From positions 34,579 to 98,578 of the IMG/VR virus record IMGVR_UViG_3300020202_000063: a stretch of 64,000 nt of DNA; one strand, written 5' to 3'. The position numbers were made by a program, and so were the translations under genes. The stretch comes from a virus. Each line of letters starts with the position of its first letter. The stretch's first letter is position 1. The notes below the pieces were generated by a model that had not been told where the DNA came from, searched no databases, and saw only the letters and a program-made list of their open reading frames with translations. Below are positions 32,499 through 47,270 of the stretch, in pieces.

Positions 32499-32981
32499 TT
32501 ATACCGCAATGCGCGAATTGGGATATTTCGCTTCAATCCAATCTTTCGCCGATTTCAAATCCCAGCCGGTAATGGTGCGGAACTCCTTGATGGCACCAAG
32601 CTTATTTGTGTATGGATTACCAATGCGACTTTCGATATACCGCCTGATATCGTCCGTCGAAATGGAGACTGATTCCAGCGGCATCGGACCGCGCCGAACG
32701 AGAAAGAGCCGCAAGAGTTGATTGGCGCTCGCATCAGGAGAAGATTGCAAACGCAGCCGTTCACACTCGCGCGACATGCCAAGCAAATCCGCCCGCAGCC
32801 CACGCTCAGTCATTTCCAAATCCGAAATACGCTTGAGCAATTTCTGATTGGCTTCTTGCAAAAGTTCAATTGGAACAGATGCGTTAATCGAAACGGTTTC
32901 ACCCGGTCGAATGTTGTAGAAACGGCCAACGATAATCGCGGCTTCCGAAACGGTCAGAATGATGTTGCGCAGGATTTTCAT
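32499..32981 (-). CDS. Protein with C-terminal ribosomal L7/L12-like domain
   Basis: NKLGAIKEFRTITGWDLKSAKDWIE resembles bL12 KxxxIKxVRxxTGLGLKEAKDLVE. Confidence 0.7.
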   Translation of the reverse strand: MKILRNIILTVSEAAIIVGRFYNIRPGETVSINASVPIELLQEANQKLLKRISDLEMTERGLRADLLGMSRECERLRLQSSPDASANQLLRLFLVRRGPMPLESVSISTDDIRRYIESRIGNPYTNKLGAIKEFRTITGWDLKSAKDWIEAKYPNSRIAV

Positions 32982-34914: not shown

Positions 34915-34952
34915 AAAACAAAAGCCGCCCTAGTTTTTATAACCAGAGCGGC
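34915..34952 (-). terminator. Rho-independent terminator
   Basis: GCCGCTCTGGTT...AACTAGGGCGGC followed by TTTGTTTTT on minus strand. Confidence 0.65.
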
Positions 34953-34987
34953 CTTGCCATGTCATCGACCGTTACGCCGAATAATTT

Positions 34988-35464
34988 TTAGCTTGCTGCC
35001 GCGAGTGGTGCCGGGGCGTTTGCCTCGGGCATCGTGGTGACATTGGCAGGCGCAGCAGGTGCTTCCTGCTTTGCCGTGCGAGTGTTGACAAGGCCCGCTT
35101 TCTTCAGCCAATTGTGCAATGTCTGCGGATGGCAACGAAGTTCCGCGATGATTTGTGAACGCTGCTTGGTGCCATTACGAACCGCCTCGATAGCGGCATT
35201 GCGTTCCGCTTCAGAAAACTCCGTGCGCGGGCGCTTGTCGGCAGCGAGTGCGCCAAGCGTGCCCTTTTCGCGTTGGGCAATCAAAGCTCGCACGCCCGCG
35301 AGATTGTCAACGCCGAAAATCTTCGGCAGTTCGTCGATTTTCTTTCCAATCGTTTCATAATGTTCGCGCTCGGTCTTTTCGATTTCGGCGCGAGTCTCTG
35401 TCATTTCACGTTGCAAACGAGCAAGACGCTCGGCGGGGGTCTCTGACTTATTGGTTTTAGACAT
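34988..35464 (-). CDS. Coiled-coil + HTH DNA-binding protein (paralogue A)
   Basis: N-terminal coiled coil, ELPKIFG, C-terminal HTH ending HNWLKKAGLV. Confidence 0.7.
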   Translation of the reverse strand: MSKTNKSETPAERLARLQREMTETRAEIEKTEREHYETIGKKIDELPKIFGVDNLAGVRALIAQREKGTLGALAADKRPRTEFSEAERNAAIEAVRNGTKQRSQIIAELRCHPQTLHNWLKKAGLVNTRTAKQEAPAAPANVTTMPEANAPAPLAAAS

Positions 35465-35508
35465 AATGCTGGTTGAGTTGAAGTTCCTATTTCACTTACA
35501 ACCCTATA

Positions 35509-35670
35509 TTATTGTTTCGGATTGTCGAGTATTTTCTTATAGGGACTATTACCTATAAGCTTATTGATGGACCATTCCAAACGACGAAACTGCCAAGCAA
35601 GTGAGTTGCTATTATACTTGCGCTTCTTTGTCGGGACGCTAACACTCATTCTCTTTTTATTTGCGGCCAT
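35509..35670 (-). CDS. 53-aa basic protein (not in ORF track)
   Basis: MAANKKRMSVSVPTKKRKYNSNSLAWQFRRLEW... Confidence 0.45.
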   Translation of the reverse strand: MAANKKRMSVSVPTKKRKYNSNSLAWQFRRLEWSINKLIGNSPYKKILDNPKQ

Positions 35671-35708
35671 ATTATTTATGAGTTAAAACGACAAATGTTT
35701 TAAAAAAA

Positions 35709-36032
35709 TCTAGGGGCCGAATCGCACGGCCCTCACTTTTAATTTAGTACGTTCGCCGCTTGGTAGTGTCACACCCTGCGTATCGAACGGGGTTCTCGTC
35801 TCACTTCTTAATTCCTTGCTGCGTCCAGCCCGGTCAGTTCTAGAAACTAATCCCGCTTTGACGTAAAACCCAATTTCACTTTTCGTTTATATCCGGTAGC
35901 ATCTAATTGGAACTTCTCAGCCTAAAACGAAATGGTTTATCACCATCTCGCTCTGGTCCCACTTCAAACGTTTCCGTTTGATTATTGCCGTCAGGCAAAG
36001 GGATTGCGGCTCCATCCCGATTAACCACACCG
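35709..36032 (-). ncRNA. Candidate ~325-nt structured ncRNA with tRNA-like 3' domain
   Basis: No ORF; consecutive hairpins including GNRA loop; terminal GGGCCG-TGCGATT-CGGCCC T-arm stacked on TCTAG/CTAGA. Confidence 0.65.
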
Positions 36033-36057
36033 AAAATTTGAAAGAACAAAAATTAAT

Positions 36058-36186
36058 TTAGGCGGCTTTCTTTAGTCCGACATAATCGACATACACCTTG
36101 CCGTCACGCTTTCGAGCGGCGCGGCCCTTAAGCTGATGCCGATTCATTCCAGACTGTTTCCGCATTTTCTTACCAGTTGCATTCAT
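36058..36186 (-). CDS. 42-aa highly basic peptide (not in ORF track)
   Basis: MNATGKKMRKQSGMNRHQLKGRAARKRDGKVYVDYVGLKKAA downstream of palindrome promoter 36239. Confidence 0.6.
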   Translation of the reverse strand: MNATGKKMRKQSGMNRHQLKGRAARKRDGKVYVDYVGLKKAA

Positions 36187-36247
36187 GATGTTTTAAGTTG
36201 AGGTTGGAACTATATCAGAAAGCTCATTCGAAATGCAATACGTACTA

Positions 36248-36496
36248 TTACGTATTTTCTATCTCCGCCCTATACATTTCGATTGAATTGGGAAAGCGGG
36301 TCGCCAGCCAATTGAGACTGGTGCGGTCCGTCATTTCCCAATTGATTTCAGCTAATGGACATGGAGTGGAGTTATTATAGGAAAATGCCGTGCGATAGAT
36401 TTGGATAATCGTTAGTCGCTGTTCGGCACTTAGACCATTATTCCACCAGTTCAGAATATTTTTATTGCGGATGGCACGAGAGAGGGTCTGGGGCAT
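36248..36496 (-). CDS. Hypothetical protein
   Basis: TTGACG-N17-TACAGT promoter; start MPQTLS. Confidence 0.55.
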   Translation of the reverse strand: MPQTLSRAIRNKNILNWWNNGLSAEQRLTIIQIYRTAFSYNNSTPCPLAEINWEMTDRTSLNWLATRFPNSIEMYRAEIENT

Positions 36497-37130: not shown

Positions 37131-37970
37131 TTACAATAGGGACATTTCCTCAATTCGCTCGCTGCGGATAATCAAATCTTCTATTTCGTCATCAGTATAT
37201 CCACGGTCTTTCTGGAATTCAGCCTTCCAACTGATATCGCCATCACCATCCCGATAGATGGAAAATTCAATCCCTCTATAATGGTTTGCCTTTTCTTCGG
37301 CAGGATTGCGCTTGCAAAAAGTATTCCAAAAGCGAATGAAATTGTTAAGTACCTGATGATTATTGCAGTTATGCGGTACTAGCCTTTGCGCCATCCGAAA
37401 GCCATAGCGGTGCAAGTCTGCAATACGGCGGAAGGTGCAACTCTGCTTATATTCCAATCCAATTTCACAACTTTCTTTTTCGTGTTTACCGGGTTGGAAA
37501 GCGCGAACCCTTTTTGTGTACTCTTCCACCACCCATTCCAATTCGCAGTCGTCAACGGGCGCTTGCCTTGGAACACTGGAAACTAGGCGGTCGCCAAATT
37601 GCGTATATCCATCTTCAATCGCCTCTTGAACAAAACTGATTGTGGTGCCGATTACATCACTTCCATTCAGGTAATCCCTGATTTGCCGATTAATAATCCG
37701 TTCACGAATTCCCAACACGCTATAATAGTACCACATTGCACCCATCGCGGCCATTTCGCCGCCCACATTCATGGCTGCATCACCCCTGAAATACTTATCG
37801 GTATGTTCGTGGGCGTGCTCAAACACATCGTGGAAGATGCCAACCCCATCCCAAAAGGCATTAAACGAATTATGTTCGTTATAGGTTTCCTTGTGAGTCA
37901 AGCCCCATTCACCGTTGGCGTCATCCTGAAAGAAAACCAGATTGACTTTGCGAACTAGGTTTTTTGGCAT
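37131..37970 (-). CDS. Hypothetical protein, possible HxxxEH metal site (leaderless)
   Basis: FHDVFEH; ATG 6 nt after TATAGT. Confidence 0.7.
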   Translation of the reverse strand: MPKNLVRKVNLVFFQDDANGEWGLTHKETYNEHNSFNAFWDGVGIFHDVFEHAHEHTDKYFRGDAAMNVGGEMAAMGAMWYYYSVLGIRERIINRQIRDYLNGSDVIGTTISFVQEAIEDGYTQFGDRLVSSVPRQAPVDDCELEWVVEEYTKRVRAFQPGKHEKESCEIGLEYKQSCTFRRIADLHRYGFRMAQRLVPHNCNNHQVLNNFIRFWNTFCKRNPAEEKANHYRGIEFSIYRDGDGDISWKAEFQKDRGYTDDEIEDLIIRSERIEEMSLL

Positions 37971-38217: not shown

Positions 38218-38508
38218 TTAAATTTTTTTCCAACCCATCATTGCACATTGATAAGCCGCCGCTTTGACCTCGGGAGCGCCCCAAACCATATCCACGTCAC
38301 CCATTTCGAGGATGATAACAATATCCCCTACCGACATGGAACGAAGATTCTCTTCTCGAATGAATTCGGTCCGGTCAACATGATTGCATTGACGAAAAAC
38401 AAATTCGAGAATATCTTTATCTGATTTGTTTTGCATCTCTTCGGTTAGCGGAAACACAAATAGATTATCCGAACCGAAAGCGAGGTATTGGATGATGACC
38501 TTTTTCAT
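38218..38508 (-). CDS. YodL-like domain protein (leaderless)
   Basis: LEFVFRQCN..RSMSVGDIVII..Y.C..GW. Confidence 0.6.
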   Translation of the reverse strand: MKKVIIQYLAFGSDNLFVFPLTEEMQNKSDKDILEFVFRQCNHVDRTEFIREENLRSMSVGDIVIILEMGDVDMVWGAPEVKAAAYQCAMMGWKKI

Positions 38509-38613
38509 GCCGCTACTATATCAGGTGCGCCATCGCAATACAATAGGGAGGATTACCTATTTTTAATTGCAGAAAGACTGCATAAGTTATGAACACCTTC
38601 ATAATATGAGATT

Positions 38614-39006
38614 ATGAAGTGTGTGAAGTGCAATCAGGATTTAATAGGAAAACAGACTAAGTTTTGTTCCGCTAAATGTAAAGCCAGTCAGCAAAACAAT
38701 TGTTATCCTAAACAGAAGATTCGAGCGTTCAAAAGAAAAGCAGAGGTGGTGACTCGATTAGGTGGAAAGTGCTCCGTTTGTGGTTATAACAAAAATTATG
38801 CCGTTTTAAACTTTCATCATACCGAACCTCAAAATAAACTGTTTAATTTAGACTCGCGCAAGCTATCCAATTCCTCTTGGGATAGGATAGAGTTAGAACT
38901 GCAAAAGGTAATCCTATTATGCGCCAATTGTCATATGGAAATACATCATCCCGATTCAGAAATAGTGGGCGGAGTGGGATTCGAACCCACGGTCCAAGAA
39001 TTATGA
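38614..39006 (+). CDS. HNH endonuclease
   Basis: CVKC..FCS..C zinc finger; GGKCSVCGY..FHH..LLCANCHMEIH. Confidence 0.85.
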   Translation: MKCVKCNQDLIGKQTKFCSAKCKASQQNNCYPKQKIRAFKRKAEVVTRLGGKCSVCGYNKNYAVLNFHHTEPQNKLFNLDSRKLSNSSWDRIELELQKVILLCANCHMEIHHPDSEIVGGVGFEPTVQEL

Positions 39007-39039
39007 GTTCTTCGCTTTGAACCACTAAGCTACCCGCCC
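38966..39039 (-). tRNA. tRNA with CAT anticodon (Ile2 or elongator Met); CCA not encoded
   Basis: GGGCGGG TA GCTT AGTGGTTCA AAGC G AAGAA CTCATAA TTCTT GGACC GTGGG TTCGAAT CCCAC TCCGCCC A. Confidence 0.92.
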
Positions 39040-39268: not shown

Positions 39269-39497
39269 TGGTGGGCTGCAAGGGATTCTCACCCCTAACC
39301 TTTCGTTACCACACCAGCCACGGTGGGGGCTTTCGGCCCGATATAACGACTGCTCTGTTTCCGGTTCTGTGGTTTCACTTTCGGCTTTGGCAAAACCTAA
39401 TTGTATTTTCCACATCCGGCCCCTTCTCTACTAAATCGCTTGTATGCGCACTTAATCGCGAAGATTCGAGTTGGGTTTATCTTGAGCTAGCGCGCCC
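39269..39497 (-). ncRNA. 229-nt tRNA-scaffold RNA with large D-loop and anticodon-loop insertions
   Basis: GGGCGCGC-TA-GCTC...GAGC-AG-TCGTTA...TAACGA-AAGGTT-AGGGG-TGAGAAT-CCCTT-GCAGCCC-A-CCA. Confidence 0.8.
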
Positions 39498-39503
39498 GTA
39501 AAA

Positions 39504-39770
39504 TCAAATTGCCTTTTCCAAATCTTCAAACGTGGAACCCAACGTACCCCAATTACAGTAGGTGGCAACCCCAACTTCCGTCTTCTCATCACCACCCATC
39601 GGACCCCAAATCTGCAATATTATAACGCCTTTTGCTCCCGCCCAAAATTCGAATTGGATTTCTGGGGCATTGGGATTCTTATCCTGAACAACCCGAATGA
39701 TTTGATAATTCTTACCCAATAGGATGTCTCGCATCCGAACATAAACACGATTCTTGAATTTATCGTTCAT
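39504..39770 (-). CDS. Hypothetical protein
   Basis: ATGA-coupled ORF. Confidence 0.6.
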   Translation of the reverse strand: MNDKFKNRVYVRMRDILLGKNYQIIRVVQDKNPNAPEIQFEFWAGAKGVIILQIWGPMGGDEKTEVGVATYCNWGTLGSTFEDLEKAI

Positions 39771-40024
39771 GTTATAAATTCAAACAATTTTGGGCGCGAG
39801 TTGAACTTTGCCACTTGCACCAACTCGCTCCCCGCATCACGAACAATACAACCGCTATTATCGACCTCGGCTGTATCGTCGTTCAGAACGAGATAAAGCA
39901 GATGGGTTTTATCACTACGTGGCACTCGCGGCAATTTGTTCATCGCCTCGACAAATGACACTTTGCTTGATGCCCACTCGCCAGCGGAGACAGCGAGGAA
40001 TGTTTTCTTAATCGGTTTATTCAT
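39767..40024 (-). CDS. Hypothetical protein
   Basis: Palindrome-linked promoter at 40063. Confidence 0.6.
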   Translation of the reverse strand: MNKPIKKTFLAVSAGEWASSKVSFVEAMNKLPRVPRSDKTHLLYLVLNDDTAEVDNSGCIVRDAGSELVQVAKFNSRPKLFEFIT

Positions 40025-46109: not shown

Positions 46110-46394
46110 TTAATCAGTATAAGGTTCCGTAACTGTATAGCGCCACGTCGTATCGTCAAACTGCTTAAGCGTGCCGTAAGATTCAAACCCAAACGGATAT
46201 CCACCAAGCTTTTCGGCGCGGTTATTAGTCGCATGGACAGTCTGCATATAAGCCCAAACCTGCGCATCGGTTGCGCCCACTTCAGTAGTGACTAGATAAG
46301 TATGCGCGGTGTCGCCATAAGCGCCGAGTTGACCGCCCTGAATACATTTATGAGTCATGGTGGAAAAGATTGCATATCTGCCGCCCAATATCAA
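46110..46394 (-). CDS. Hypothetical protein
   Basis: Start probably MTHKCI. Confidence 0.55.
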   Translation of the reverse strand: MILGGRYAIFSTMTHKCIQGGQLGAYGDTAHTYLVTTEVGATDAQVWAYMQTVHATNNRAEKLGGYPFGFESYGTLKQFDDTTWRYTVTEPYTD

Positions 46395-46448
46395 GATTTA
46401 TTTTCGAAAAAGTGCAAAACTACATGTATTATTAGTGTAACTAATTAC

Positions 46449-47270
46449 ATGAAGAAAGAATACTTTTATGATACGACAATTTTTAAACAGATTGATTCCC
46501 CAGAAAAAGCTTACTGGCTTGGCTTTCTGTATGCGGATGGAAATTTATTGGGAAGACGGGTGTCAGTTGGCCTTGCAAATTTAGATGCCGAACACGTCGA
46601 AAAATTCAAACGTTTTTTAGGAACAGATAAACCAATTGAGAAATACAAAAATAGTACGCACCTGCAATTCAACTCAAAAGAAATTTCTGATGACTTACGA
46701 GTATTGGGTCTATACGAAAGGAAGAGTTTAACAATACCGTTTCCGACAACAAGTATGGTGCCAGATAAATATTTGAATAGTTTTGTGTTGGGTTATTTTG
46801 ATGGAGATGGAACGATTTACAAATCGCGGCGGGTTCAATATAGTGTTAAGTTTATTGGTAGCAACACGTTTATTGATGGTTTAAAATCTTATCTTACTAC
46901 TAAGGGGTTTTTATTTCATGTTAGACGTATTAAGTCCGTTTCTGAACTTGTCACCACAGACAAAAAAAATATTAGAGAGTTTTATAAACTACTTTACTCA
47001 GATGGGATATATTGTCTACAAAGAAAGAAAGAAAAATTTGAAACTATGTTAACCGAAGTCAATTGGGAAAGAGTTGACCAACCGCGACATTCGCGATATA
47101 AATACGTTACATTAGATAGGCGACGGGGAAAATGGGTGGCAAGTCGCAAAATTAACCGTAAGACAAAATTTATTGGTTATTTCGATTCTGAAATCAACGC
47201 CCATCTCGCTGCCGTAGCTTATCAACCGGAATGTTTAGTATCACAGACCAAAATTCTATCGGAAGTATAA
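46449..47270 (+). CDS. Double-motif LAGLIDADG homing endonuclease with C-terminal AP2 domain
   Basis: YWLGFLYADG and FVLGYFDGDG; SRYKYV..GKWVA..IGYFDSEINAH AP2 motif. Confidence 0.85.
   Translation: MKKEYFYDTTIFKQIDSPEKAYWLGFLYADGNLLGRRVSVGLANLDAEHVEKFKRFLGTDKPIEKYKNSTHLQFNSKEISDDLRVLGLYERKSLTIPFPTTSMVPDKYLNSFVLGYFDGDGTIYKSRRVQYSVKFIGSNTFIDGLKSYLTTKGFLFHVRRIKSVSELVTTDKKNIREFYKLLYSDGIYCLQRKKEKFETMLTEVNWERVDQPRHSRYKYVTLDRRRGKWVASRKINRKTKFIGYFDSEINAHLAAVAYQPECLVSQTKILSEV

What the first reader, a model, noticed from the sequence alone, without database searches (positions are those of the whole stretch)
35709..36048. ~325-nt highly structured ncRNA with boxA-like leader and tRNA-like 3' domain
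Seen (minus strand, no ORF): TGTTCTTTCAAA (36037-36048), then back-to-back hairpins GGGAT/ATCCC, TTGCC-TGAC-GGCAA, TCAAACG-GAAA-CGTTTGA, AGAGCGAGATGGT-GATAA-ACCATTTCGTTTT and CCAATT/AATTGG, possibly closed by GGTTAATC/GATTAGTT. A second domain (35709-35844) starts TCTAG, contains CGTTCG/CGAACG and a repeated AATTAA(G)AAGTGAG, and ends GGGCCG-TGCGATT-CGGCCC-CTAGA, i.e. a T-arm with 7-nt loop stacked on an acceptor-like stem. CGAA(A)AGTGAAA occurs here and in the 229-nt RNA. Established: rrn boxA (TGCTCTTTAACA-like) antiterminates untranslated RNAs, and large phage ncRNAs (GOLLD, ROOL) tend to lie near tRNAs. I see no RNase P, tmRNA or SRP signature. Inference: a second tRNA-mimicking large ncRNA, possibly of an undescribed class.
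Basis: partly seen in the sequence, partly recalled or inferred. Interest (0 to 1): 0.8.

Follow-up and report, generated by a model that had tools for sequence, protein, structure and literature searches.

The report
Folded untranslated RNA in phage early operon
A roughly 350-base gene-free stretch in an uncultured phage probably folds into a structured RNA at the end of an early transcript. The claimed tRNA-like and boxA features do not hold up, and no relatives could be fetched to show that the fold is conserved.

Summary

**Points in favour of a real structured RNA**
- The stretch lies in the largest ORF-poor region of the whole 98.6-kb virus record.
- It folds better than shuffled sequence only on the transcribed (minus) strand: z = -4.0, against -1.6 on the plus strand.
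- No Rfam family matches it.

**The two headline features are not supported**
- The boxA-like word is at chance level: 14 equally good matches in the window, against 18.6 expected.
- The acceptor-like stem has about zero probability in the folding ensemble.
- No tRNA model or ARAGORN hit falls here.
- The "T-arm" is more simply an intrinsic terminator hairpin followed by seven U.

**New findings**
- The 42-aa basic ORF just upstream is a real, conserved micro-protein, with five homologues at 59-81% identity.
- The only early-type promoter sits upstream of that ORF.
- The next two genes have no early-type promoter of their own.

**Most likely reading (about 0.4).** This is a structured 3'-untranslated or intercistronic RNA of the micro-protein transcript. 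Its terminator gates read-through into a downstream helix-turn-helix (HTH) gene.

**What is missing.** I retrieved no RNA homologue, so neither covariation nor expression could be tested. The contigs that carry the micro-protein homologues are the obvious next test. Interest is moderate to low until then. The scan has not noted this RNA on other DNA.

The parts
36209..36255 (-). Early sigma-70-type promoter. It has a variant operator palindrome (ATACGTAATAGTACGTAT, 36255-36238), a -35 box TTGCAT (36238-36233), an 18-nt spacer and a -10 box TATAGT (36214-36209). The predicted start is near 36205-36202, which gives a leader of about 17 nt. Sister promoters in this region are leaderless.
   Evidence: Read. 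The regex scan of all TTGnnn-N16-18-TAnnnT sites shows it belongs to the series ...TA TTGyAw N17 TATnnT, and the repeat families agree. Function is inferred from the motif, not shown.
36058..36186 (-). Gene for a conserved 42-aa Lys/Arg-rich micro-protein (P0005). Its stop codon TAA lies at 36058-36060, 9 nt before the boxA-like word.
   Evidence: Five homologues at 59-81% identity come from Logan, ENA and JGI assemblies (P0003, P0006-P0009). They share the invariant core NGK..RK..G.NR..LKGRAA.KR. No Pfam, PHROG or PDB family matches. The ESM-Atlas lead to ribosomal protein L35 scores 0.86 and is a lead only.
35709..36048 (-). Structured untranslated RNA segment, the finding itself. The predicted architecture is:
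- a long-range irregular helix, 36042-36019 with 35903-35875
- a three-way junction, 36003-35957, carrying the UGAC-loop and GAAA-loop hairpins
- a 13-bp hairpin with a GAUAA loop, 35954-35924
- an 11-bp helix, 35871-35860 with 35800-35790
- a hairpin at 35789-35750
- the 3' hairpin
   Evidence: The structure comes from thermodynamic prediction only. No covariation is available.
35765..35811 (-). Module 1 of an internal duplication: AAUUAAGAAGUGAG, then 8 nt, then CCGUUCGAUACG. The loop word UUCGAUA is T-loop-like.
   Evidence: The local alignment to module 2 scores 26, against 14.5 +/- 2.8 in shuffles (p = 0.002). A hairpin of its own costs 7.8 kcal/mol relative to the minimum-free-energy fold.
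35702..35745 (-). Module 2: AAUUAAAAGUGAG followed by the hairpin GGGCCG[UGCGAUU]CGGCCC (35732-35714), then CUAGA and U7 (35708-35702).
   Evidence: The terminator scan finds it. The helix has P = 0.97. The exact 19-mer occurs in unrelated phages as an ordinary terminator.
35509..35670 (-). A 53-aa basic ORF that starts 31 nt after the U-tract. It has no early-type promoter of its own. An operator-like palindrome without a -35 box lies inside it, at 35556-35539.
   Evidence: The only match among 5.8 billion proteins is itself, so its coding status is open.
34988..35464 (-). A 158-aa coiled-coil plus helix-turn-helix protein. It is the last gene of the unit and has no early-type promoter of its own.
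   Evidence: Weak HTH_Tnp_1 and HTH_29 hits in Pfam, and a transposase hit in PHROGs. The only database match is itself. The promoter scan is.
34921..34955 (-). Strong terminator (15-bp stem plus a U-run) that closes the unit, directly before the next operator and promoter.

Best explanation
The stretch is the untranslated, strongly folding distal part of an early phage transcript.

**Proposed course of transcription**
1. Transcription starts at an operator-flanked sigma-70-type early promoter (36255-36209).
2. It passes the gene of a conserved 42-aa Lys/Arg-rich micro-protein (36186-36058).
3. It then runs through about 350 nt of multi-helix RNA.
4. It meets an intrinsic-terminator-like hairpin plus U7 (35732-35702).

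**Proposed function.** The following 53-aa ORF and the 158-aa HTH gene have no early-type promoter. They can therefore be reached only by read-through. On this reading the element works in cis in two ways:
- It forms a stable, protected 3' end for the micro-protein message.
- Its terminator sets, and possibly regulates, how much transcription continues into the HTH gene.

**Shown**
- absence of coding
- strand-specific excess folding
- the positions of the promoter and terminator motifs
- conservation of the micro-protein

**Inferred**
- that the RNA is made
- that the hairpin terminates transcription
- that read-through is what expresses the distal genes
For: - It is the largest ORF-poor stretch of the record, and no frame opens under any single stop reassignment.
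- Minus-strand fold z = -4.0, against -1.6 on the plus strand. Several helices have P > 0.9, and the 13-bp hairpin contains three G-U pairs.
- Early promoters of one series head nearly every gene between 29.9 and 41.5 kb. One sits at 36238, and none lies between 35700 and 35464.
- A terminator-like GC hairpin plus U7 closes the structured stretch, and a second strong terminator at 34955-34921 closes the unit.
- The upstream micro-ORF is a real conserved gene. The structured part therefore begins after a translated cistron and is not a separate gene.
Against: - No homologue of the RNA was found, so nothing shows that selection maintains the fold.
- Other windows in coding sequence reach a similar z-score.
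- The terminator has a 7-nt loop and 5 nt between the 6-bp stem and the U-run, which is not ideal.
- No alternative anti-terminator pairing is visible; the terminator helix has P = 0.97.
- 340 nt is far more than a terminator or a 3'-end stabiliser needs.
- A distant relative of the micro-protein in another phage (L033) is followed directly by the next gene, with no RNA.
- Other promoter types in front of the HTH gene cannot be excluded.
Confidence: 0.4

Rival explanations
1. This is a stand-alone, trans-acting large structured ncRNA of an undescribed class. It might be processed from the early transcript, with T-loop-type hairpins that mimic part of a tRNA.
For: - It matches no Rfam family.
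- It has strong local helices with GNRA-type loops (GAAA, and GAUAA).
- Two copies of the module AAUUAA(G)AAGUGAG plus a hairpin are present. Their 7-nt loops (UUCGAUA, UGCGAUU) fit the pattern U-N-C-R-A-N-N.
- It lies in an RNA-rich early region, 3 kb from tRNA-Met.
Against: - It has no promoter of its own.
- The tRNA model and ARAGORN are silent.
- The acceptor-like stem has P about 0.
- Forming the first T-loop-like hairpin costs 7.8 kcal/mol.
- There are no homologues or paralogues.
- The sequence shared with the 229-nt RNA is at chance level.
Confidence: 0.2
2. The stretch has no sequence-specific function. It is a spacer or the decayed remnant of a lost gene that happens to fold well, followed by an ordinary terminator.
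For: - It is an orphan sequence with no detectable relatives.
- z-scores below -4 also occur in two other windows of 120.
- The long-range helices proposed by eye are not supported.
- Phage early regions are mosaic; almost no flanking gene is shared with the nearest relatives.
Against: - Phage genomes rarely keep 390 nt of useless DNA, and this is the largest such gap in 98.6 kb.
- The folding excess is strand-specific.
- The internal duplicated module is not random.
- No frame shows the low stop count of a recent pseudogene; the best frame still has 3 different stops in 117 codons.
Confidence: 0.25
3. This is a processive-antitermination device of the lambda N/nut or HK022 put kind. The basic micro-protein would be an N-like arginine-rich peptide. 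It would bind GNRA-like hairpins of the nascent RNA and make RNA polymerase read through the terminator into the delayed genes.
For: - The layout matches lambda pR-cro-nutR-tR1-cII (established knowledge): promoter, small gene, RNA site, terminator, then promoter-less regulator gene.
- The micro-protein has a conserved Lys/Arg core.
- The GAUAA pentaloop could fold like a GNRA loop, as boxB loops do. This is an inference from established lambda and P22 boxB structures.
Against: - The boxA-like word is at chance level and the host is unknown.
- nut and put sites are 40-70 nt, not 340 nt.
- The micro-protein matches no N family or any other family.
- Its distant relative in L033 has no RNA beside it.
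Confidence: 0.1
4. The stretch acts as DNA rather than RNA. It would be an origin of replication or a packaging site, with AAGTGA-type iterons and the AT-rich run at 35710-35670 beside a small-terminase-like or HTH gene.
For: - Four AAGTGA copies lie in one orientation within 400 bp, against 19 on that strand of the whole 98.6-kb record.
- An AT-rich tract follows them.
- The neighbouring 158-aa protein has a faint hit to small-terminase and transposase HTH families.
Against: - The folding excess is strand-specific, which points to RNA.
- The repeat spacings of 75 and 68 bp are not in helical phase.
- The GC-skew turning point lies near 26-29 kb, not here.
Confidence: 0.05

Closest known systems
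Lambda nutR-tR1 and HK022 putR: cis-acting RNA sites between the first early gene and a terminator
   Same: The order is the same: early promoter with operator, small first gene, structured RNA, intrinsic terminator, then promoter-less regulatory gene. A small basic protein is encoded in the same transcript.
   Different: - The element is five to eight times longer.
- The boxA-like word is not above chance.
- No family link exists between the micro-protein and N.
- No functional data exist.
Large phage-associated ncRNAs GOLLD and ROOL (Rfam families)
   Same: It is a long, multi-helix, non-coding RNA in a phage genome that also carries a tRNA gene.
   Different: - No covariance-model match appears, even at E up to 10.
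- It is half their size or less.
- It has no promoter of its own.
- It is not adjacent to the tRNA, which lies 3 kb away.
3'UTR-derived bacterial sRNAs (for example CpxQ or SroC) and structured mRNA 3' ends
   Same: The structured RNA shares its terminator with an upstream coding gene. An internal promoter could give a shorter transcript.
   Different: - It is much longer than typical 3'UTR sRNAs.
- No seed or target is known.
- Neither processing nor stability has been shown.
tRNA-like structures: the tmRNA tRNA-like domain, YrlA and viral tRNA-like structures
   Same: One GC-rich hairpin with a 7-nt loop of the form U-N-C-R-A-N-N resembles a T-arm. A second such loop word (UUCGAUA) lies 68 nt upstream.
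   Different: - There is no acceptor stem of 7 bp.
- There is no NCCA end; U7 stands in its place.
- Position 55 of the loop is G.
- There is no D or anticodon arm.
- No tRNA, tmRNA or Y-RNA model matches.
Candidate structured RNAs mined from IMG/VR (PMC10690425)
   Same: It is an intergenic phage RNA candidate from IMG/VR-type data, and many of those candidates contain Rho-independent terminators.
   Different: - Those candidates are 29-151 nt long and rest on covariation among at least 3 sequences.
- This one is about 340 nt and has no retrieved homologue.

Membership tests
tRNA or tRNA-like structure | Match to the tRNA covariance model (RF00005) or a call by a tRNA finder | tested here: not met
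   RF00005 at E up to 10 over the whole record hits only tRNA-Met and an unrelated site. ARAGORN finds only tRNA-Met. cmscan of 35500-36300 at E up to 10 gives nothing.
tRNA or tRNA-like structure | An acceptor stem stacked on the T-arm, with a single-stranded NCCA 3' end | tested here: not met
   The proposed stem is 5 bp (UCUAG/CUAGA). It has ensemble probability of about 0 and costs +7.4 kcal/mol to enforce. It is followed by U7, not NCCA.
tRNA or tRNA-like structure | A T-arm: a 5-bp stem with a 7-nt loop U54-U55-C56-R57-A58 | tested here: inconclusive
   The hairpin GGGCCG[UGCGAUU]CGGCCC has P = 0.97. It has a 6-bp stem, and G stands where U55 should be. The same hairpin plus U7 fits an intrinsic terminator.
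boxA antitermination site (rrn / lambda nut) | A match to the boxA consensus that is better than chance | tested here: not met
   The site has 2 mismatches to TGYTCTTTRAMAA. The window holds 14 equally good or better sites, against 18.6 +/- 4.1 in shuffles.
boxA antitermination site (rrn / lambda nut) | Binding of host NusB/NusE and read-through of downstream terminators | not testable with these tools
   The host is unknown and no expression data are available.
Intrinsic (Rho-independent) terminator | A GC-rich hairpin followed by a U-run on the transcribed strand, at the end of a transcription unit | tested here: met
   Six G-C pairs, then CUAGA, then U7. The 5-nt spacer and the 7-nt loop are less than ideal.
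Described RNA families: GOLLD, ROOL, HEARO, OLE, raiA, RNase P, tmRNA, 6S, SRP, T-box, riboswitches, ribozymes, group I and II introns, phage pRNA | A covariance-model match in Rfam 15 | tested here: not met
   There is no match at gathering scores over the window. There is none at E up to 10 over 35500-36300 except a spurious lncRNA hit outside the element. RF00028 alone at E up to 10 hits elsewhere only.
Independent ncRNA gene | A promoter of its own directly upstream | tested here: not met
   The only early-type promoter (36238) precedes the conserved 42-aa ORF, and none lies between 36058 and 36048.
Conserved structured RNA (any class) | Homologues with compensatory base changes | not testable with these tools
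   No homologue was retrieved.

The most novel reading that the evidence does not exclude
The 340-nt RNA and the conserved 42-aa Lys/Arg-rich micro-protein encoded just ahead of it form a previously undescribed phage early ribonucleoprotein. The RNA would carry two T-loop-type modules, each preceded by AAUUAA(G)AAGUGAG. The peptide would bind it to control transcription read-through or to act on host translation or the tRNA machinery.
Probability: 0.12. Interest if true: 0.7.

Novelty: new member of a known kind. Interest (0 to 1): 0.35.

Why it matters
If conserved, this would be a large structured RNA tied to a conserved micro-protein in the early operon of a phage lineage with no cultured relatives. 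That could be a new way for a phage to time its early genes.

As it stands, it is an orphan candidate. Its two most striking claimed features, tRNA mimicry and boxA, are not supported.

The useful outcome is a concrete test. Five homologues of the adjacent micro-protein exist in public assemblies, at a divergence well suited to covariation analysis.

Tried and rejected
**Known RNA families**
- Rfam at gathering scores and at a permissive threshold found nothing.
- Searches with the group I intron model and the tRNA model alone found nothing here.

**Alternative genetic codes and pseudogene**
- The three stops in the best frame are TGA, TAA and TAG, so no single reassignment opens it.

**Homologue hunt for the RNA**
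- blastn against GenBank phages found nothing.
- I looked for neighbour-gene anchors:
  - The 158-aa and 53-aa proteins match only themselves.
  - A capsid-region protein gave nothing.
  - The 279-aa protein gave one IMG/VR relative and 21 metagenome loci at 39-71% identity (most 39-54%). These loci share no synteny, and blastn, nhmmer and the covariance model find no RNA match in them.
  - None of these loci holds an Rfam or tRNA feature, apart from one tRNA-Arg.
- Exact-word scans of IMG/VR with the 3' hairpin and with the duplicated module returned only chance hits: terminators and coding sequence of unrelated phages.
- Scans of the prokaryote genome collection with the 279-aa and the micro-protein alignments found nothing.
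- A distant micro-protein relative in L033 has no RNA next to it or anywhere in its record.

**Paralogy with the 229-nt RNA**
- It is not significant.

**Micro-protein identity**
- The ribosomal protein L35 lead from the protein atlas scored 0.86.
- Pfam and the PDB profile search do not back it.

Full report
**Setting.** The window is the right-hand 64 kb of a 98.6-kb IMG/VR virus record, estimated 70% complete. Its proteins have almost no family matches, and tblastn of the 279-aa protein found no cultured phage relative. Between about 29.9 and 41.5 kb the genes run on the minus strand. Nearly every gene there is headed by the same device: a palindrome ATAGGG-N6-CCCTAT overlapping a -35 box TTGyAw, then 17 nt, then TATnnT. 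In most cases the ATG follows 6-7 nt later, so the mRNAs are leaderless.

- The stretch is non-coding. All six frames are closed, and the best frame is interrupted by one TGA, one TAA and one TAG, so no single stop reassignment rescues it.
- 35671-36197 is the longest stretch of the whole record without an ORF of 50 aa or more in any frame, at 527 nt against 229 nt for the next longest.
- The 340-nt RNA folds to -111.5 kcal/mol, against -91.9 +/- 5 for dinucleotide shuffles. That is z = -3.5 to -4.0, with none of 100-150 shuffles as good.
- The complementary strand gives only z = -1.6. This points to RNA-level pairing with G-U pairs; three of them sit in the 13-bp hairpin.
- In a sliding scan of 120 windows on the same strand, this region scored -4.8. 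Two other windows, both outside non-coding RNA candidates, also fell below -4. The z-score is therefore supportive, not decisive.

**Which helices hold?** Six helices have probability of about 0.93 or more in the partition function:
- UUGCC[UGAC]GGCAA
- UCAAACG[GAAA]CGUUUGA
- AGAGCGAGAUGGU[GAUAA]ACCAUUUCGUUUU
- the 11-bp GGGUUUU.CGUC/GACG.AGAACCC
- CGUUCG/CGAACG
- the 3' hairpin GGGCCG[UGCGAUU]CGGCCC

The first two hairpins sit in a three-way junction closed by UCCC/GGGA. The boxA-like 5' segment is predicted to pair with the CGAAAAGUGAAA segment in a long irregular helix.

- UCUAG/CUAGA, CCAAUU/AAUUGG and GGUUAAUC/GAUUAGUU have probability of about 0.
- GGGAU/AUCCC has probability 0.17.
- Forcing the acceptor-like stem costs 7.4 kcal/mol.
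- The P = 0.99 helix 35871-35860/35800-35790 runs straight across his domain boundary.

These are thermodynamic predictions, and long-range pairs are the least reliable part of them. They do remove the positive evidence for a separate tRNA-like domain.

**The two headline features.**
- *boxA.* At the same stringency the degenerate boxA consensus matches 14 places in the window, against 18.6 expected from shuffles. Three of those are better than this site. The host is unknown.
- *tRNA mimicry.* The tRNA covariance model at E up to 10 over the whole record, and ARAGORN, see only the genuine tRNA-Met. Rfam at E up to 10 sees nothing in 35500-36300.
- *What is left of the mimicry.* One GC hairpin remains, with a 7-nt loop, followed by CUAGA and seven U. 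The terminator scan calls it an intrinsic terminator. The identical 19-mer occurs as an ordinary terminator behind a gene in unrelated high-GC phages.
- *Link to the 229-nt RNA.* The 9-mer shared with the 229-nt RNA at 39269-39497 is not above chance (p = 0.41). The single-sequence covariance model finds no paralogue.

**New observations.**
1. *The 42-aa ORF directly upstream is a real gene.*
   - The ORF spans 36186-36058.
   - An exhaustive search of 1.84 billion representative proteins, followed by a profile search of 5.8 billion, found five homologues at 59-81% identity. They come from Logan, ENA and JGI assemblies.
   - They share an invariant basic core, NGK..RK..G.NR..LKGRAA.KR.
   - It belongs to no Pfam, PHROG or PDB family.
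   - The protein-atlas lead to ribosomal protein L35 (0.86) is below the level that tool calls meaningful, and nothing else backs it.
2. *Promoter layout.*
   - The only early-type promoter near the RNA lies upstream of this ORF. Its -35 box is at 36238 and its -10 box TATAGT is at 36214-36209.
   - It carries a variant operator, ATACGT...ACGTAT instead of ATAGGG...CCCTAT. Unlike its sisters, it gives a leader of about 17 nt.
   - No such promoter lies between the terminator hairpin and the next two ORFs, the 53-aa ORF and the 158-aa coiled-coil/HTH protein.
   - The palindrome at 35556-35539 lacks a -35 box.
   - The unit ends at a strong terminator at 34955-34921.
3. *Internal duplication.*
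   - The 3' third contains AAUUAA(G)AAGUGAG followed by CCGU(U/G)CGAU(A/U)CG, twice, 68 nt apart (p = 0.002).
   - Both 7-nt words, UUCGAUA and UGCGAUU, fit the T-loop pattern.
   - Forming the first as a hairpin costs 7.8 kcal/mol, because it competes with the CGUUCG/CGAACG helix.
   - AAGTGA occurs 19 times on this strand of the record. Three copies lie in the RNA and one just upstream of the HTH gene.

**Homologues of the RNA.** None was found.
- Sequence searches were negative: GenBank phages, and the nearest IMG/VR relative, both the 10.7-kb locus around its homologue of the 279-aa neighbour and its whole record.
- The 21 metagenome loci around homologues of the 279-aa protein gave no match with blastn, nhmmer or the covariance model.
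- Two word scans of IMG/VR found nothing related.
- The relatives reachable here are too distant (39-54% protein identity) and share almost no flanking genes.
- A distant micro-protein relative in a 65%-GC phage (L033) is followed at once by the next gene, and its record has no match to the model.

**What it most likely is.** The layout runs in this order: operator-controlled early promoter, conserved micro-protein gene, about 350 nt of structured untranslated RNA, terminator-like hairpin plus U7, two promoter-less ORFs ending in an HTH protein, and a strong terminator.
- The most economical reading is a structured 3'-untranslated or intercistronic segment of the micro-protein transcript.
- Its terminator would limit or regulate read-through into the HTH gene. 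I put this at about 0.4.
- The length and complexity of the fold and the duplicated module suggest more than a terminator.
- Rival readings stay open: a processed trans-acting RNA (0.2), an N/nut-like device that uses the basic peptide (0.1), a functionless spacer plus terminator (0.25), and a DNA-level site (0.05).

**Comparison with known systems.**
- In function it looks most like lambda nutR-tR1 or HK022 putR in position, and like 3'UTR-derived RNAs in architecture.
- It is not a member of any described RNA family; every membership test that could be run was negative.
- Large-scale mining of IMG/VR has produced thousands of short intergenic candidates (29-151 nt), many with terminators (PMC10690425). 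That work required several homologous sequences per candidate, which are not in hand for this RNA.

**Verdict.**
- The non-coding, strand-specific folding stretch is real. The tRNA-like and boxA interpretations are not supported.
- Whether the fold is conserved or the RNA is expressed could not be tested.
- Novelty: at present, one more orphan phage structured-RNA candidate, now attached to a newly recognised conserved micro-protein.
- Interest: 0.35. It would rise sharply if the downstream regions of the five micro-protein homologues show covariation.

Noticed in passing
window 36058-36186 (-): The 42-aa Lys/Arg-rich ORF is a conserved micro-protein family. There are five homologues at 59-81% identity in Logan, ENA and JGI assemblies, plus a distant one in IMGVR_UViG_3300025018_000410 (L033:3002-3130). 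It has no Pfam, PHROG or PDB family.
   Followed up: yes
window 36238-36255 and 35539-35556 (-): Two atypical copies of the early-operator palindrome. One has the inner triplets changed (ATACGT...ACGTAT) but keeps a full promoter. The other is canonical in shape but lacks a -35 box, and it lies inside the 53-aa ORF just upstream of the HTH gene.
   Followed up: partly
window 36187-36210 and 35465-35490 (-): The untranslated leaders of the 42-aa ORF and of the 158-aa HTH gene resemble each other (TTCCAACCTCAAC and CTTCAACTCAACC). Neither has a Shine-Dalgarno sequence, and most genes of this phage lack one.
   Followed up: no
window 38614-39006 (+): A 130-aa Cys/His-rich ORF on the opposite strand has a weak HNH-endonuclease hit (PF21368, E = 0.0045). 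Its 3' end overlaps tRNA-Met (38965-39039, minus strand).
   Followed up: partly
It shows no significant similarity to the RNA studied here.
   Followed up: partly
window 38500-38699 and 39700-39899 (-): Two further 200-nt windows have fold z-scores below -4 (25 shuffles each). The first spans an operator/promoter and the antisense of the HNH-like ORF. The second lies in overlapping small ORFs.
   Followed up: no
window 37131-37970 (-): The 279-aa protein of unknown function is the only gene of this early region with a wide family. There are 21 metagenome loci and one IMG/VR record at 39-71% identity (mostly 39-54%), with many invariant His, Glu and Trp positions. There is no Pfam or PHROG hit and no match in GenBank phages.
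   Followed up: partly
window 46302-47270 (+): A 322-aa ORF with a LAGLIDADG_3 domain (E = 1.4e-6) lies on the opposite strand to its neighbours. It is a probable homing endonuclease.
   Followed up: no
window 32499-32981 (-): A 160-aa protein has a weak, sub-threshold hit to the C-terminal domain of ribosomal protein L7/L12 (E = 4.8e-4, 20.8 bits against a cut-off of 25.9).
   Followed up: no
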